A stretch of DNA of 8,079 nt from a virus (lineage: Duplodnaviria > Heunggongvirae > Uroviricota > Caudoviricetes). The notes under the pieces are model-generated. The model was not told where the DNA came from, ran no database searches, and saw nothing but the letters and a program-made list of their open reading frames with translations. A program made the position numbers and the translations under genes. The DNA is taken from IMG/VR virus record IMGVR_UViG_2657244943_000011; one strand, written 5' to 3'. This document shows, in pieces, positions 1,572 through 5,380 of this stretch (positions are counted from its first letter, which is position 1; every line of letters starts with the position of its first letter).

Positions 1572-1699
1572 CTGGTTGAGTATACAGTAGTAGACTTTGA
1601 GCGACGAAAGAAAAGGCTGTGTCTAGGGGCGCTCCCGAAAATCCGTACATCTCGACGGACTGGTACAGCCACTACAGTAGAGGACGCTGAGGTGTGCGT

Positions 1700-2497
1700 A
1701 TGATTGATATTCATGCCGAATTAAACGAATACAAAAAAGATTTTATTTCTTTACGTGAATTTCTTGAGGTCGTGCTTAAGGTCGCTGGTGATGATTATGA
1801 TGTTTCAGATGTCATAACTTGGATACTCAGGAGAATAAGCGGAGAACATATCCGCCTGTACACAGTAAATGAATTTAAGCTGTTGGAATCTTTTTGTAAC
1901 CCGTATCGGGATGAATTTGATTATGATGTTCTTTATAGAAATCTGAATGCGGTTCGGAAACGTGGTTGTTTACCTGGTGAGAGGGATGAAAATGGTTTTC
2001 TGGTGTCCGGTTATTGGGAAGATCCCGAATTTGAGAACATTGGATTTATAAGGGGTGAAATTTTCGCAATTTTTCCCGATGTCCTTGACGCGTTAACGAA
2101 GCTGGAAGGCGCTAACTCTTCTGAAAATGACGAGGCACAAGGACGCGATATTGAAAAGAAAGAGTTGCGTACAGAGGATGATTTATTATCCCAAATCGCA
2201 ATGCTGGAAAAAGAAAACGCAGAGTTAAGGGCAAGGATAGAGCAGTTAGAGCAAGAGCGCCCGATACACTTATATAAATACTGGGATAAAGACCCATTAG
2301 CTAAGGCTATTGAGATTAGAAACAGAGAGTGGGCCAATTACGATCCAGAAAATGATTTTGCCACTAGGGGAAATCAAGAAGCGATAACCAGGGAGCTTAA
2401 GCAGTGGGGGGCAAGTAATGCTCTTGCAACGCTCATAGAGAGGACTGCCTGCCCTATTAACCGAGACAACAGCCAAAAGAACGCAAAGCCGGATTAA
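1700..2497 (+). CDS. hypothetical protein, low-GC orphan cargo gene with central acidic linker and coiled-coil segment
   Basis: ORF track frame 1694-2497; I prefer ATG 1700 (GAGG at 1689-1692, 7 nt spacing) over GTG 1694. TAA stop 2495-2497. Three 60-nt samples counted at about 35-42% GC versus about 52% in an int sample. No recognisable catalytic or DNA-binding motif; heptad-like LLSQIAMLEKENAELRARIEQLEQER. Confidence 0.6.
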   Translation: MIDIHAELNEYKKDFISLREFLEVVLKVAGDDYDVSDVITWILRRISGEHIRLYTVNEFKLLESFCNPYRDEFDYDVLYRNLNAVRKRGCLPGERDENGFLVSGYWEDPEFENIGFIRGEIFAIFPDVLDALTKLEGANSSENDEAQGRDIEKKELRTEDDLLSQIAMLEKENAELRARIEQLEQERPIHLYKYWDKDPLAKAIEIRNREWANYDPENDFATRGNQEAITRELKQWGASNALATLIERTACPINRDNSQKNAKPD

Positions 2498-2510
2498 CGC
2501 ACCATACCGC

Positions 2511-2655
2511 ATACCCTGAGGGTGATTTACTGTTACCCTGAGGGTATTTTTTTATCTTCCCCGTCAATTTTACCATCACCCTTAGGGTAGATTTCCTCCC
2601 GATTACCATCACCCTTAGGGTTAATTTCCTTCCGGTAACCATTAGGCCTGAGGGT
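2511..2655. repeat. array of near-palindromic 11-mers ACCCT(G/T)AGGGT including a 33-bp tandem direct repeat; probable regulator/recombinase binding sites upstream of alpA
   Basis: ACCCTGAGGGT at 2513-2523 and 2535-2545; ACCCTTAGGGT at 2578-2588 and 2611-2621; partial GGCCTGAGGGT at 2645-2655. Tandem 33-mers TTACCATCACCCTTAGGGTAGATTTCCTCCCGA (2570-2602) and TTACCATCACCCTTAGGGTTAATTTCCTTCCGG (2603-2635), 29/33 identical. Confidence 0.7.
2535..2554 (+). terminator. possible weak intrinsic terminator after the orphan gene (palindromic 11-mer followed by T7 run)
   Basis: ACCCTGAGGGT followed by A then TTTTTTT (2547-2553), 40-60 nt after the 2497 stop. The stem is short and would need pairing between neighbouring repeat copies, so this is tentative. 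Confidence 0.25.
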
Positions 2656-2724
2656 ATGAAAATATTCGTTATTTCTGTGCCATGATTACCTCGTCAAATT
2701 GAGTAGACGTTATGAGGTAAATAT

Positions 2725-2922
2725 ATGTCAAATACGCTTATTCGTTTAACAGAAGTTCAGCGTAGAACTGGATATAGCAAGGCATGGATTTATCGCCTTA
2801 TGGGGCAAGGTAAATTTCCTGCATCAGTTAAAATTGGCTCGCGAGCTATTGCTTTCGTTGAGAGTGAAATTGACGAGTGGATTAATCAGCGTATTGCTGA
2901 ATCACGCGGAACAGCTACCTGA
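2725..2922 (+). CDS. alpA: AlpA-family (phage Vis/excisionase-like) helix-turn-helix transcriptional regulator
   Basis: 65-aa ORF with GAGGT 6 nt upstream of ATG 2725. Sequence MSNTLIRLTEVQRRTGYSKAWIYRLMGQGKFPASVKIGSRAIAFVESEIDEWI matches the AlpA/Vis HTH pattern as I recall it. Its position after a P4-type int is typical of CP4-57-like and PICI-like islands. Confidence 0.85.
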   Translation: MSNTLIRLTEVQRRTGYSKAWIYRLMGQGKFPASVKIGSRAIAFVESEIDEWINQRIAESRGTAT

Positions 2923-3000
2923 TTAAATGGCTACGGGGCCAGAAGCCCCCAGCTATCCACCAGCAAATAAAAGTAACTTAATTCGATAGCAGGAGTTTTT

Positions 3001-3801
3001 ATGAAACTGCGAAAAACGCCCGTACAGGGGCAGGGCTTCGTTCGGCCTGAAAACCAGAATCTGCAAAATTTCGGCGAAATTATCCCGGTTATTTCCGGCG
3101 TTATTGGCGGGCGTGAAACCAATATTGTTAGCGGCAGAGCGTTGCATAAGGCGTTAGGTGTAGGTCGCGTTTTCCGTTCGTGGATCAAGGGGCGCATTGA
3201 AGAATACGGCTTCACGGAAGGCGTGGATTATGAGGTTGTTGAATATTTGAGCCGACCCGATCCGGTGAGCGCAAAATCTCGCCAGCAAACAGCTCTTGAG
3301 TACATCATTACCGTGAACATGGCGAAAGAACTGGCGATGGTCGAACGCACCGAACAGGGGCGCGCCGTTCGTCAGTACTTCATCAAATGCGAGGAAGAGC
3401 TACACAAGGTTGCGCCTGTACGTTCCGCAGCGTTACGCCGGGAACTGAAAGCCCGTATCACAGTTGCCAGCTACTTTAAGCCAATGTGTGCCGCGCTGGA
3501 GGACTACCGGGCTGAACTGGATAAAAACACTCTACAGCACCACTACACCACGGAAGCCAATATGCTGGCGCGTATCGTGCTGGGTGGCATGACTGCAAAA
3601 CAGTGGGCGCAGGTGAACGGCATCACAGGCGAACCACGCGACCACATGAGCACGTTGCAGCTTGAGCACCTTTCTTACCTTGAGCAGAGCAATATCACGC
3701 TGATTGAGTTAGGCCAGGACTACCACCAGCGGAAGGCTGAATTAATTCGTCTTTCGCAGCGTTGGTTAGCCCGTCGCATGGAGGAAAACAGCCATGTGTA
3801 A
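3001..3801 (+). CDS. phage antirepressor-like protein (AntA/AntB N-terminal domain type)
   Basis: 266-aa ORF, AGGAG 6 nt upstream of ATG 3001, TAA stop 3799-3801. Segment RALHKALGVGRVFRSWIKGRIEEYGFTEGVDYEV...ITVNMAKELAMVERTEQGRAVRQYFIKCEEEL resembles the AntA-type antirepressor N-terminal domain from memory; not verified by search. Confidence 0.6.
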   Translation: MKLRKTPVQGQGFVRPENQNLQNFGEIIPVISGVIGGRETNIVSGRALHKALGVGRVFRSWIKGRIEEYGFTEGVDYEVVEYLSRPDPVSAKSRQQTALEYIITVNMAKELAMVERTEQGRAVRQYFIKCEEELHKVAPVRSAALRRELKARITVASYFKPMCAALEDYRAELDKNTLQHHYTTEANMLARIVLGGMTAKQWAQVNGITGEPRDHMSTLQLEHLSYLEQSNITLIELGQDYHQRKAELIRLSQRWLARRMEENSHV

Positions 3802-4260
3802 CGCTCTGACCGTTACAAAAAGAGAAAGCGCCCCGTTGCCGGAGCGCCTTTGTGAACGAATAGCCTACTGCGCCATATTGCTTACTGTCTACGAGGCAGA
3901 TTATAGCGTTGTGGTCGCACAGAGTGAAGGCGCTGATCACCGTTACTACAGCACGCCAGAAATGCAGAATATTTTGCTGCAAAATGCCGTTGGCCACGCT
4001 GTCCGGAAAGCAAAAAATTTTGCTGGTGGCGCGACTGATGCGATTTTGTCAGGTCGCCAGGTGCTGATCAATCTGATGTCTGATTTCGTTCTGGATAAAA
4101 CAAAGGCGACCGCAGAGAGCCGCCAGTGGAAAAGCTACATACTTGAACGCATCACCAACAATGCCACATTTGCGGCTGGTGGGCAATGTGTCAGCTTTGC
4201 ACCAATGACTCTAGGTTTAACTGAGGGTCATTATGGTGAATATGCTGGCTTGCTGGTGGG
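3794..4260 (+). pseudogene. uncertain ORF / possible gene remnant; good start signals but no credible stop (frame runs on to 5380)
   Basis: ATG 3794 overlaps the upstream stop (ATGTGTAA) and has TGGAGGA 8 nt upstream, the same coupled-junction architecture as real genes downstream. The first ~140 codons look protein-like; beyond about 4200 the translation becomes Cys/Ser-rich and then runs antisense through the minus-strand gene at 4519-4824. The end coordinate is arbitrary. Confidence 0.2.
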
Positions 4261-4518
4261 CTATTCCTGCTCTTTAACATCGCCATGCCGCGATGTTTTC
4301 CAGGTATGCGACCCCATTTTTGTGCGCCTGTACTCTTTAAGGAATTTCTCAAGGATAAACGCACAGGGCGCGAATCTGTCTGACTCATGCTCGTACGCTA
4401 TCTTTCTGCGCTGTCTTTTCCGTGCCGGTGATGGTGTATTGGTTGATTCTTTGTTGGTCATGGCGCTGCCCTGTAAAACGATGCACCGTAGTTCCTCACA
4501 CCACGGCGCTGGTGATGG

Positions 4519-4824
4519 TTACTCCTGTTCTTTGGCCTTGCGCCGCTGGAGTTCTTCACGCGCGACGGTGACGAGTTGCCCGATCTCCTCGGCTGCTTTG
4601 ACACCGATTTTTTCCACCTGCGCCAGTGCATCGAGCGAAGAAACCAGGGGATTTTCTCCGCTTCCTTCTGCCTGGCGGCGGGCGATTTCACCGCGAACGG
4701 CTGTAATCACGAAAGCGGCTATTGTTTCCCCTTCCGTTTTCGAATTTTCCATTTCCTCGATTACATCATGGGGGAAGCGGATATTTTTCATTTGCGATCT
4801 GCTGTTGATGTTTCCTGTTGCCAT
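4519..4824 (-). CDS. putative ribbon-helix-helix (Arc/MetJ/CopG-like) DNA-binding regulator
   Basis: 101-aa minus-strand ORF with well-formed composition, unlike the plus-frame translation of the same DNA. N-terminal KNIRFPHDVIEEME followed by helical GETIAAFVITAVRGEIARRQA fits a beta-strand/helix/helix RHH pattern. Divergent from the small-gene operon across a palindrome-rich intergenic region. Start could be ATG 4824 or the internal ATG 4791; neither has a strong SD. Confidence 0.5.
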   Translation of the reverse strand: MATGNINSRSQMKNIRFPHDVIEEMENSKTEGETIAAFVITAVRGEIARRQAEGSGENPLVSSLDALAQVEKIGVKAAEEIGQLVTVAREELQRRKAKEQE

Positions 4825-5014
4825 CAGAATGTCCGGTTATTTTGAGGTGTGTACACATTACACCAAAAGGTGTGTTGATAAAACACTTGACACTGTAGCA
4901 CACTTAAATCTAATCTGTGTATACACTAATGATTGTGGTGTATATACAGCAACGCCCCGCAGTGGTGGCACACATGCAGGGCGTCTAACCAAACCGTTAA
5001 ACGAGGTAACGATT
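4825..5014. promoter_or_regulatory. divergent promoter/operator region with three perfect 10-bp palindromes
   Basis: TGTGTACACA (4848-4857), GTGTATACAC (4917-4926), TGTATATACA (4939-4948); additional GGTGT/ACACC half-sites; consensus -35 hexamer TTGACA at 4887-4892 and TTGATA at 4875-4880. AT-rich relative to flanks. Confidence 0.5.
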
Positions 5015-5380
5015 ATGGCTGGAACACAGCATACCCAAACTCACCCTAAATTTATATACACCTTCCTGGCGGTGCACCGTGATTGCATAGCTGACGGTAA
5101 AAACACTGTACACGTAGCCGCTGATACGCTGGTTGATGCCTGCGAGATGCTCAATGACATGGGCTATATCTCGGCAACATGGAAAGGGCGCGAAGAAAAC
5201 ACGCTGTTTATTCAGAAATGCGAGAACAATTTTATCTGGCGTTTTATCGCCCTGAGCACAGCACAACCGCGCGTAATTCACATCGAGGCCACCAGCGAAC
5301 AGGAAGCGCGTCAGCAATCTCCTGATGGCTGCGTGATGGTATTCGCTGCCCGTATTCGCCAGGAGGTGCACCATGCATAA
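5015..5380 (+). CDS. hypothetical protein (first gene of small-gene operon)
   Basis: ATG 5015 with GAGGT 7 nt upstream, TAA stop 5378-5380; 122 aa. In frame with the run-on ORF 3794-5380 but with its own initiation signals. Stop overlaps the next start. Confidence 0.6.
   Translation: MAGTQHTQTHPKFIYTFLAVHRDCIADGKNTVHVAADTLVDACEMLNDMGYISATWKGREENTLFIQKCENNFIWRFIALSTAQPRVIHIEATSEQEARQQSPDGCVMVFAARIRQEVHHA

What the first reader, a model, noticed from the sequence alone, without database searches (positions are those of the whole stretch)
2511..2655. Array of ACCCT(G/T)AGGGT palindromes with a 33-bp tandem duplication upstream of alpA
Five copies of an 11-bp near-palindrome fall within 145 bp, two of them inside tandem 33-mers that are 29/33 identical, plus a degenerate third copy. 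The array sits between the orphan gene's stop and the alpA start, so it could be the binding platform for AlpA, the integrase or an excision complex, or an iteron-like element. A T7 run after the second copy may also give termination. The density and regularity are higher than expected for a plain intergenic spacer.
Basis: seen in the sequence. Interest (0 to 1): 0.55.

Follow-up and report, generated by a model that had tools for sequence, protein, structure and literature searches.

The report
Conserved phased palindrome array gating alpA
The palindrome cluster upstream of alpA is a real, evolutionarily conserved control region of an E. coli phage-satellite island: its first two copies form the terminator of the unnamed gene just upstream, and the whole array travels with that gene's uncharacterised protein family rather than with AlpA or the integrase, which makes that protein the leading, though unproven, candidate for the factor controlling the island's master switch.

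Summary
There are four exact ACCCT(G/T)AGGGT palindromes (2513, 2535, 2578, 2611), a tandem 33-mer that is 29/33 identical, and a T7 run; chance expects 0.1 sites. The "fifth copy" (2645-2655) belongs to a separate conserved 18-bp dyad.

Comparative analysis shows two parts.
- Copies 1 and 2 pair into a -23.9 kcal/mol hairpin followed by T7, which terminates the upstream "orphan" gene. The centre bases of this pair covary across 21 lineages.
- The remaining copies are stand-alone palindromes. Their positions relative to the alpA ATG are fixed (-113, -156, -179, -211) and spaced by whole helical turns, while the DNA between them is unalignable.

The motif follows the orphan gene's conserved C-terminal domain. 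Different clades of that domain carry different repeat motifs. AlpA proteins with the same recognition helix occur without the palindromes or with other motifs. The same array sits beside integrases only 61-67% identical, and also beside one about 30% identical that lies roughly 7 kb away on the other strand.

Best reading: a phased operator-like array for a dimeric protein, most likely the orphan product, which has a leucine zipper and no known family. This array gates the alpA promoter and also serves as a terminator and insulator. No binding has been shown, and the protein is acidic. The number of 33-mer units varies (1, 2 or 3) among 148 E. coli carriers.

The parts
2513..2523 (.). Palindrome 1, ACCCTGAGGGT. 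It is the 5' arm of the post-stop hairpin.
   Evidence: Exact match. It pairs with palindrome 2 (I5, 11).
2535..2545 (.). Palindrome 2, ACCCTGAGGGT. It is the 3' arm of the hairpin.
   Evidence: In strain L004 a 22-bp deletion fuses copies 1 and 2.
2511..2553 (+). Intrinsic-terminator-like hairpin (2511-2547, 15 pairs with one G.G mismatch) followed by T7 (2547-2553). It ends the int/orphan transcription unit.
   Evidence: RNA fold -23.9 kcal/mol, z = -5.45. The centre bases of the equivalent pair covary in 21 lineages.
2578..2588 (.). Palindrome 3, ACCCTTAGGGT, in the first 33-mer unit. This is the extra copy created by the duplication.
   Evidence: It is absent in 1-unit strains such as L003 and L007.
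2611..2621 (.). Palindrome 4, ACCCTTAGGGT. It is the conserved '-113' site, the most positionally conserved copy across lineages.
   Evidence: It lies at -113/-114 from the alpA ATG in at least 12 diverged lineages.
2570..2635 (.). Tandem 33-bp duplication (units 2570-2602 and 2603-2635). The unit number is polymorphic: 1, 2 or 3.
   Evidence: Among 148 E. coli carriers about 27 have 1 unit, about 108 have 2 and about 13 have 3.
2637..2655 (.). Proximal dyad AACCATTAGGCCTGAGGGT.
   Evidence: Other lineages carry ACCCTCATGCCTGAGGGT or CCATTAGGCCTAATGG at the same place. Changes on both half-sites keep the dyad.
2678..2686 (+). TGcCATGAT, a candidate extended -10 element of the alpA promoter (inferred).
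   Evidence: TGnNANNAT is conserved at the same distance from the ATG in 19 of 20 diverged upstream regions. The consensus scan found no canonical -35/-10 promoter.
2687..2719 (+). Conserved 8-bp hairpin whose 3' arm contains the alpA Shine-Dalgarno sequence (GAGG, 2714-2717).
   Evidence: It is conserved but shows no compensatory changes.
1700..2497 (+). The 'orphan' gene (WP_000565286.1, 265 aa). It has a variable N-terminal domain, a leucine-zipper-like helix and a conserved C-terminal domain. It is the gene the array co-occurs with.
1616..1683 (+). Rfam int-alpA RNA motif (RF02996), the structured leader immediately before the orphan gene.
   Evidence: 44.2 bits against a gathering score of 35.8. 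It holds the same position before the middle gene in 11 related loci.
2725..2922 (+). alpA (Phage_AlpA, 65 aa), the island's activator gene downstream of the array.
   Evidence: Pfam E = 2.4e-19. Its role as a PICI (phage-inducible chromosomal island) master activator comes from PMC6092414 and PMC11773190.

Best explanation
The array is the cis-regulatory core of a conserved module with this order: int-alpA RNA leader, orphan gene, repeats, alpA promoter. The module belongs to a tRNA-inserted phage-satellite island of the PICI (phage-inducible chromosomal island) / P4-like kind. The array has two jobs.

(1) Terminator. In RNA, palindromes 1 and 2 pair with each other into a strong hairpin followed by U7. 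This terminates transcription coming from int and the orphan gene and insulates alpA from read-through. The hairpin and U7 are shown by folding; termination is inferred.

(2) Binding platform. As duplex DNA, all copies are dyad-symmetric sites (half-site ACCCT, free centre base). They lie on one face of the helix at fixed distances upstream of the alpA core promoter, so they look like a platform for cooperative binding of a dimeric protein that sets alpA promoter activity. This is inferred.

The most likely binder is the product of the adjacent orphan gene. It would dimerise through its leucine zipper, recognise the repeat through its conserved C-terminal domain, and use its variable N-terminal domain as a sensor, for example of a helper-phage cue. 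This is inferred from co-occurrence and from clade-by-clade covariation of protein and motif. Whether it represses or activates cannot be told.

The 33-bp duplication adds one more in-phase site, and the number of units varies among strains.
For: - Motif enrichment: 4 exact sites against 0.11 expected.
- Hairpin: -23.9 kcal/mol, z = -5.45, followed by T7.
- Pairing of the first two copies: across 21 lineages the centre position forms a standard pair in 14 of 21, using 5 pair types. The covariation score is 0.176 against 0.104 +/- 0.016 in shuffles (0 of 500 reach it). The promoter-proximal pair shows none (4 of 15, at shuffle level).
- Conservation: in islands with orphan proteins only 33-43% identical and unalignable spacers, 3-5 copies persist at -113, -156, -179 and -211 from the alpA ATG.
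- Phasing: spacings fall in classes 21-24, 32-34 and 42-44 bp; the resultant length is 0.78-0.85 at a 10.5-bp period.
- The array tracks the orphan gene: 30 of 46 distinct downstream regions of genes with the subfamily-A C-terminal domain have at least 2 sites within 300 bp, against 0 of 46 control coding segments. A Herbaspirillum-type prophage has the orphan-like gene and the palindromes but no adjacent alpA.
- Protein and motif covary. Subfamily B (E. coli, Yersinia, Erwinia, Pseudomonas) carries GTGCCCACC repeats. Three further clades carry CCCTATAT(C), AGGGTGATAG/CTATCACCCT or CTATCAGGGTA.
- AlpA is decoupled from the motif.
- The orphan protein has a long coiled-coil helix with bZIP-like hits.
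- Literature: alpA is induced by helper phage through an unknown factor, and no repressor is known in Gram-negative PICIs (PMC6092414, PMC11773190).
Against: - No binding data exist.
- The protein is acidic: N-terminal domain net charge -12 (pI 4.5), coiled coil -5, C-terminal domain net 0. This is unusual for a DNA binder.
- A gene's 3' end and the adjacent spacer are inherited together, so clade-by-clade covariation could reflect linkage rather than recognition.
- 15 of 46 subfamily-A-like genes lack the exact motif, although they carry other repeats.
- The alpA transcription start is unknown, so the position of the sites relative to the promoter is inferred.
- The U-tract after the hairpin is weak or absent in many relatives.
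- Centre-base covariation is equally expected from a two-fold symmetric protein complex spanning both sites, so it does not prove an RNA role.
Confidence: 0.5

Rival explanations
1. A purely RNA-level element. The palindromes are arms of alternative stem-loops in the int-orphan read-through transcript. Pairing 1:2 terminates; pairing 1:3, 1:4 or 2:3 (with a G.U centre) would compete. The array would then be a terminator or attenuator that sets how much read-through reaches alpA, and no DNA-binding protein is needed.
For: The first two copies covary at the centre base. In L233 the two copies are exact reverse complements of each other although each is an imperfect palindrome. In L072 and L228 the stem is extended by non-motif flanks. 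In the 236-nt fold, copy 1 pairs with copy 3 and copy 4 pairs with the proximal dyad (-66.8 kcal/mol, z = -4.06).
Against: Structure alone does not require the same 11-mer sequence, individually palindromic arms, or helical-turn spacing at fixed distances from the alpA ATG. The promoter-proximal copies show no pairing covariation. In L246 and L234 an unrelated terminator follows the stop codon, yet the palindromes at -113 and -156 are kept. No Rfam family matches.
Confidence: 0.15
2. The palindromes are binding sites for a factor encoded elsewhere. This could be a helper-phage protein (the unknown inducer of alpA in Gram-negative PICIs) or a host regulator. The orphan protein would then be an unrelated accessory or sensor protein that merely sits next to the sites.
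For: Helper phages induce alpA through an unidentified factor (PMC6092414). The orphan protein is acidic and has no DNA-binding fold match. The motif resembles CsoR-type type-2 operators, ATATACCCCTNAGGGGTATAT (PMC3902906).
Against: The motif class changes with the orphan C-terminal-domain clade inside one host species: E. coli carries both the ACCCTNAGGGT and the GTGCCCACC types. Each class is kept across distant hosts, namely Escherichia to Herbaspirillum and E. coli to Pseudomonas, which a host factor would not explain. No enterobacterial phage contig with the paired motif was found outside the island family in the viral-contig scan. No CsoR-family protein was detected.
Confidence: 0.15
3. 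AlpA autoregulatory sites. AlpA would bind the palindromes to activate its own promoter.
For: AlpA activates its own promoter in EcCICFT073 and EcCIMP1. The array lies directly upstream of alpA.
Against: L061 and L062 encode AlpA with the identical RTGYSKAWIYRL recognition helix (75% identical overall), yet have no site at up to 2 mismatches upstream. L238 has the same helix but a different repeat. L245 and L249 share an AlpA region that is identical from the helix-turn-helix motif to the C-terminus, yet they carry different repeats that follow the orphan clade. L047/L067 keep the palindromes without an adjacent alpA. No other copy lies in front of any other island operon. The separate proximal dyad is a better candidate for an AlpA site.
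Confidence: 0.08
4. Integrase arm-type or excision-complex sites, or iterons of a replication origin.
For: The sites are a repeated short motif in a mobile element, and there is a moderately AT-rich stretch after copy 2.
Against: The array is about 2.3 kb from the tRNA-Thr/att junction (tRNA at 115-190), far outside the arms of a typical attP. The sites are palindromes, not direct repeats. The same array occurs with integrases only 61-67% identical, at two different tRNA sites, and in L047, whose only integrase-like match (about 30% identity) lies roughly 7 kb away. The motif is absent from the other island end. No rep gene is adjacent; the DUF927 primase lies more than 3 kb away. The unit number varies freely between 1 and 3.
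Confidence: 0.04
5. Only the terminator is functional. The other copies are neutral by-products of local duplication.
For: The unit number is polymorphic and the 33-mers are recent duplicates.
Against: The -113 and -156 sites are retained in lineages whose surrounding DNA has diverged beyond alignment.
Confidence: 0.05

Closest known systems
Cooperative operator arrays of temperate-phage and satellite regulators (lambda OR/OL; the Stl operator region of Gram-positive SaPIs)
   Same: Several short dyad-symmetric sites are spaced by whole helical turns next to the promoter of the element's master lytic or induction gene. The candidate regulator gene sits beside them, between int and the induction operon. 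The candidate regulator has a modular build, with one conserved and one variable (sensor-like) part.
   Different: The candidate binder has no helix-turn-helix or other known DNA-binding family and is acidic. It is transcribed in the same direction as alpA, not divergently. The sites lie upstream of the core promoter rather than over it. Two of them also form a terminator. Gram-negative PICIs are reported to work through an activator (AlpA) with no known repressor (PMC6092414).
Intrinsic (Rho-independent) terminators
   Same: Copies 1 and 2 give a G+C-rich stem followed by U7, 14 nt after a stop codon.
   Different: Both arms are themselves palindromes identical to sites further downstream. 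Many relatives keep the hairpin but not the U-tract.
CsoR-family type-2 operators (ATATACCCCTNAGGGGTATAT; PMC3902906)
   Same: TAC...GTA inverted repeats flank short C and G tracts around a free centre base.
   Different: The island motif is TAC-N7-GTA, not TAC-N9-GTA. No CsoR/RcnR/FrmR-like protein was detected in the island. The resemblance is a lead only.
Rfam int-alpA RNA motif (RF02996)
   Same: It belongs to the same int-to-alpA regulatory interval and the same island family. It is present in this window at 1616-1683.
   Different: It is a different element, 830 bp upstream, preceding the orphan gene. The palindrome array matches no Rfam family.
P4 Vis / AlpA-family excisionase-regulator binding regions
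   Same: The genomic neighbourhood is the same (int, alpA/vis, satellite).
   Different: The motif does not follow AlpA sequence.

Membership tests
Intrinsic terminator | Stable G+C-rich hairpin immediately followed by a U-tract, downstream of a gene on its coding strand | tested here: met
   Hairpin 2511-2547 at -23.9 kcal/mol (z = -5.45), then T7 at 2547-2553, 14 nt after the orphan stop codon.
Intrinsic terminator | Hairpin maintained in relatives by compensatory change | tested here: met
   The centre pair is standard in 14 of 21 lineages with 5 pair types, and 0 of 500 shuffles reach the covariation score. The U-tract is not always kept.
Operator array of a dimeric DNA-binding regulator | Dyad-symmetric sites conserved against diverged flanks | tested here: met
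   Across 33 sites from 10 lineages, half-site positions are 30-33/33 conserved and the centre base is free: A 6, C 8, G 8, T 11.
Operator array of a dimeric DNA-binding regulator | Fixed, helically phased spacing relative to a promoter | tested here: inconclusive
   Sites lie at -113, -156, -179 and -211 from the ATG in many lineages, and the spacings are phased. The transcription start is not known.
Operator array of a dimeric DNA-binding regulator | Demonstrated binding by a cognate protein | not testable with these tools
   Needs gel-shift, footprinting or ChIP experiments.
AlpA autoregulatory sites | Motif present wherever AlpA with the same recognition helix autoregulates, and motif covaries with AlpA | tested here: not met
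   L061, L062 and L238 have the same helix with no motif or a different one. L245 and L249 have the same AlpA helix-turn-helix motif but different motifs.
Integrase arm-type sites / attP architecture | Direct repeats within a few hundred bp of the att core that follow integrase specificity | tested here: not met
   The array is 2.3 kb from the tRNA and is palindromic. It occurs with integrases 61-100% identical, at two tRNA sites, and in L047, where only a distant match (about 30% identity) lies roughly 7 kb away.
Iterons / replication origin | Direct repeats bound by an adjacent Rep/primase gene product, next to an AT-rich unwinding element | tested here: not met
   The primase gene is more than 3 kb away. 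There is no conserved AT-rich block. The repeats are palindromic.
REP/BIME-like dispersed repeats | Many copies dispersed around the host genome | tested here: not met
   148 of 5426 E. coli genomes carry the region, with a median of 1 place per genome. Unrelated paired ACCCTNAGGGT repeats do exist in Chloroflexota and other metagenome-assembled genomes.
CsoR-type operator | TAC-N9-GTA pseudopalindrome with G tracts, plus a CsoR-family repressor | tested here: not met
   The spacing is N7, and no PF02583-like hit appears in island proteins.
Gram-negative PICI / P4-like satellite (context of the array) | tRNA-adjacent int, alpA and primase, unidirectional genes, no structural genes | tested here: met
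   tRNA-Thr, int, alpA, antA, Icd-like gene, DUF4222, DUF927 primase, ProQ and PerC. Helper-dependent mobilisation was not tested.

The most novel reading that the evidence does not exclude
The unnamed protein family encoded between int and alpA could be the missing helper-phage-responsive regulator that gates alpA in a large group of Gram-negative satellites. The family has at least 662 clusters at 50% identity and no Pfam domain. It is preceded by the Rfam int-alpA RNA leader. It is built from a variable N-terminal sensor domain, a leucine zipper and a conserved C-terminal domain. In this reading it uses a new type of DNA-binding domain whose clades have co-evolved with distinct repeat motifs (ACCCTNAGGGT, GTGCCCACC, CCCTATATC and others). 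The same sites would double as the terminator that insulates alpA.
Probability: 0.3. Interest if true: 0.8.

Novelty: new variant of a known kind. Interest (0 to 1): 0.55.

Why it matters
How Gram-negative phage-inducible islands sense their helper phage and switch on alpA is an open question. PMC6092414 states that the inducer is under study and that no repressor is known. This array, together with the uncharacterised gene it travels with, gives a concrete and testable cis/trans pair at exactly that control point. The module is present in E. coli, including O104:H4 outbreak strains, and in Salmonella, Enterobacter, Serratia, Yersinia, Erwinia, Pseudomonas and Herbaspirillum. It also places the orphan Rfam motif int-alpA as the leader of this middle gene. 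The natural 1, 2 and 3-unit variants provide a ready allelic series for testing.

Tried and rejected
- Unbiased scan of 185,579 species genomes for the paired motif. None of those loci carried int, orphan or alpA, so the scan was uninformative for Enterobacterales.
- Literature search for the 11-mer. Only the CsoR consensus resemblance turned up.
- Viral contig L056, which has a CCTAAGG-rich array, was examined as a possible helper phage. It looks like a eukaryotic virus, so the lead was dropped.
- My first hand count of complementary centre bases gave 5 of 10, which is not significant. A rule-based set of 21 lineages with controls was needed to show the effect.
- Canonical sigma-70 promoter scan of 2300-3050: no hit.
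- The Shine-Dalgarno hairpin is conserved but shows no compensatory change, so structure is neither supported nor refuted.

Full report
**What is in the window**

The window is an E. coli chromosomal island inserted at tRNA-Thr (115-190). Its features, in order, are:
- a P4-type tyrosine integrase (357-1571);
- an unannotated 265-aa gene, the "orphan" (1700-2497);
- alpA (2725-2922);
- an AntA-family gene;
- a 528-aa ORF with an Icd-like C-terminus;
- small ORFs and a DUF4222 gene.

In a complete copy (NZ_CP055251) the island continues with a DUF927 primase, ProQ/FinO, PerC and a SIR2 gene, and it lies between proA and the pao genes. This is the gene plan of Gram-negative phage-inducible chromosomal islands (PICIs). 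In those islands AlpA is the master activator. It stimulates its own promoter and is switched on by a helper phage through an unknown factor (PMC6092414, PMC11773190).

- Exact ACCCTGAGGGT lies at 2513 and 2535, and exact ACCCTTAGGGT at 2578 and 2611. Shuffles expect 0.11.
- The tandem 33-mers 2570-2602 and 2603-2635 are 29/33 identical, and a 61% third copy lies at 2527-2559.
- T7 runs from 2547 to 2553.
- No other copy exists in the window or in 28 kb covering the whole island and its far end.
- The region is present in 148 of 5426 complete E. coli genomes, with a median of one place per genome and never on plasmids. It is therefore not a dispersed REP-like repeat.
- The number of 33-bp units is polymorphic. 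About 27 genomes have one unit (including O104:H4 outbreak strains), about 108 have two and about 13 have three. One strain has lost copy 2 through a 22-bp deletion.

**The array is under selection**

A pattern scan of viral contigs returned 53 loci, and 36 of them belong to this island family. In the diverged members the orphan protein is only 33-43% identical, the integrase 61-67% and AlpA 74-85%. The intergenic DNA cannot be aligned, yet 3-5 copies of (T)ACCCTNAGGGT(A) remain, with a free centre base. Their distances from the alpA ATG are conserved at -113, -156, -179 and -211. The window shows the same plan with one extra 33-bp unit. Spacings fall into classes of 21-24, 32-34 and 42-44 bp, which is about 2, 3 and 4 helical turns (resultant length 0.78-0.85 at 10.5 bp). 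The spacing classes are few and partly inherited, so this evidence is supportive rather than decisive.

**The array has two parts**

Copies 1 and 2 fold together into a -23.9 kcal/mol hairpin (z = -5.45) directly followed by U7, 14 nt after the orphan stop codon. This is an intrinsic-terminator structure.

I took, by rule, the first two sites after the stop codon in 21 lineages. The centre bases form a standard pair in 14 of 21, using five pair types. The covariation score is 0.176 against 0.104 +/- 0.016 in shuffles, and 0 of 500 shuffles reach it. The two promoter-proximal sites show no such signal: 4 of 15, at shuffle level.

Further support comes from individual lineages. In L233 the two copies are exact reverse complements although each is an imperfect palindrome. 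In L072 and L228 the stem is extended by non-motif flanks. In L246 and L234 an unrelated terminator follows the stop codon while the -113 and -156 palindromes are kept.

So the upstream pair is selected to be mutually complementary, while the downstream copies are stand-alone sites. One caveat applies: a two-fold symmetric protein complex spanning both sites would also select for complementarity, so the covariation does not prove an RNA role.

**The fifth copy is something else**

Positions 2645-2655 are the right half of an 18-bp dyad (2637-2655). Other lineages carry ACCCTCATGCCTGAGGGT or CCATTAGGCCTAATGG at the same place, and paired changes in both half-sites preserve the symmetry. It abuts a conserved TGnNANNAT element (2678-2686). 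I read that element as an extended -10, because no canonical promoter is found. An 8-bp hairpin then covers the alpA Shine-Dalgarno sequence (2687-2719).

**What the palindromes track**

They do not track AlpA.
- L061 and L062 encode AlpA with the same RTGYSKAWIYRL helix, but have a different gene or no gene between int and alpA, and no palindrome.
- L238 has the same helix with a different repeat.
- L245 and L249 have AlpA proteins identical from the helix-turn-helix motif to the C-terminus, yet carry different repeats.

They do not track the integrase. The same array sits beside integrases specific for tRNA-Thr and for tRNA-Gly, and beside a very different element in a Herbaspirillum-type prophage (L047/L067). 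That prophage has an orphan-like gene followed by the palindromes, a convergent XRE-family (helix-turn-helix) gene and no adjacent alpA.

The constant partner is the orphan gene's conserved C-terminal domain.
- Of 46 distinct regions downstream of genes with this domain (subfamily A) in viral contigs, 30 have at least 2 sites within 300 bp. None of 46 control coding segments does.
- The genes lacking the motif belong to other clades of the domain and carry their own repeats: CCCTATAT(C), AGGGTGATAG/CTATCACCCT and CTATCAGGGTA. In the CCCTATAT(C) clade the repeat again lies inside a T-run-terminated hairpin after the stop codon, with further copies before the next gene; the AGGGTGATAG/CTATCACCCT repeat is itself a long inverted repeat just after the stop.
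- A homologous subfamily B occurs in E. coli, Yersinia, Erwinia and three Pseudomonas loci. It is always followed by GTGCCCACC/GGTGGGCAC repeats and then alpA.

**The orphan protein**

It has no match in Pfam, NCBIfam, PHROGs or PADLOC. PGAP annotates it variously as hypothetical, coiled-coil or "bZIP transcription factor". AlphaFold2 models show:
- an alpha/beta N-terminal domain that varies between lineages;
- a long helix (161-188) with leucine-zipper-like hits;
- a small helical C-terminal domain, which is the conserved part.

No fold match was found. A profile of the C-terminal domain finds 662 clusters at 50% identity. The domain is always C-terminal, and ten long members have no Pfam domain. 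The protein is acidic: N-terminal domain net charge -12, C-terminal domain net 0. That is a real caveat for a DNA-binding role.

**Interpretation**

The best-supported reading is that the array is the cis element of a module made of the orphan gene, the repeats and the alpA promoter. It terminates and insulates upstream transcription. It also offers in-phase dyad sites for a dimeric protein that sets alpA promoter activity. The orphan product is the best candidate binder, both by elimination and by clade-wise covariation.

Steps shown: motif enrichment, the hairpin, conservation, phasing, association with the orphan domain, and dissociation from AlpA and Int.

Steps inferred: termination in vivo, the promoter position, protein binding, the identity of the binder and the sign of regulation.

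Rivals that remain open are a purely RNA-level attenuator and a phage- or host-encoded binder. AlpA sites, integrase arm sites, iterons and REP elements are disfavoured.

**Relation to known things**

Functionally the array resembles phage and satellite operator arrays combined with an intrinsic terminator. The motif looks like CsoR type-2 operators (PMC3902906), but the spacing differs and no CsoR-like protein is present. Its core, CCTNAGG, is also the recognition sequence of Bsu36I/Eco81I; that is my own knowledge and was not followed up. I found no paper describing this motif or this protein family. I rate it a new variant of a known kind.

Noticed in passing
window 1616-1683 (+); also L005, L024, L037, L061, L068-L070, L072-L074: The Rfam int-alpA RNA motif (RF02996) lies directly before the start of the gene between int and alpA. 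That gene is orphan subfamily A or B, or DUF6387. The 3' end of the motif supplies the likely Shine-Dalgarno sequence. The motif was not detected in L062, which has no middle gene. It therefore looks like a cis leader of the middle gene rather than of alpA.
   Followed up: partly
window 2637-2655: An 18-bp dyad sits next to the putative alpA core promoter. Its half-sites change in pairs between lineages (ACCCTCA..TGAGGGT versus CCATTAGG/CCTAATGG). The window carries a hybrid of the two types. It could be the AlpA autoregulatory site.
   Followed up: partly
window 2678-2719: A conserved TGnCATNAT element (extended -10-like) is followed by an 8-bp hairpin that occludes the alpA Shine-Dalgarno sequence. 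If transcription starts about 7 nt after the -10, alpA-promoter transcripts would lack the 5' arm. Only read-through transcripts would then be translationally blocked, an arrangement like IS10 'fold-back' protection. The start site is unknown.
   Followed up: partly
window 3794-5380: A 528-aa ORF whose last roughly 50 residues match the Icd-like / P4-type 'transcriptional repressor' families. In other copies of the island this stretch is replaced by YlcI/YnfO genes and short Icd-like genes. Related islands carry C4 antisense RNA and isrK there, but this window has neither at the Rfam gathering score.
   Followed up: no
L002, L004, L006, L007 versus L001, L005: The same orphan-array-alpA module is found behind two integrase types (about 66% identical), inserted at tRNA-Gly (next to actS) or at tRNA-Thr (next to proA).
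   Followed up: no
L066, L068, L069, L073, L074: Orphan subfamily B (C-terminal domain ...LWSTYDEDD...NMAEAVNLILRP plus a basic tail) is always followed by GTGCCCACC/GGTGGGCAC repeats before alpA, from E. coli to Pseudomonas.
   Followed up: partly
L022, L049 and L024, L035-L037: In several lineages the orphan gene is split or shortened. A roughly 150-aa ORF keeps the GFRR motif, the zipper and the C-terminal domain. The N-terminal domain is either a separate ORF or interrupted by stop codons.
   Followed up: no
L075-L194 (genome-contig scan): Paired ACCCTNAGGGT palindromes are abundant as dispersed, hairpin-like repeats in metagenome-assembled genomes of Chloroflexota, Bacteroidota and Candidatus Roizmanbacteria. 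They are unrelated to this island.
   Followed up: partly
window 2511-2655: The core CCTNAGG of every palindrome is the recognition sequence of the restriction enzymes Bsu36I/Eco81I (my own knowledge). I did not examine whether methylation or restriction plays any role.
   Followed up: no
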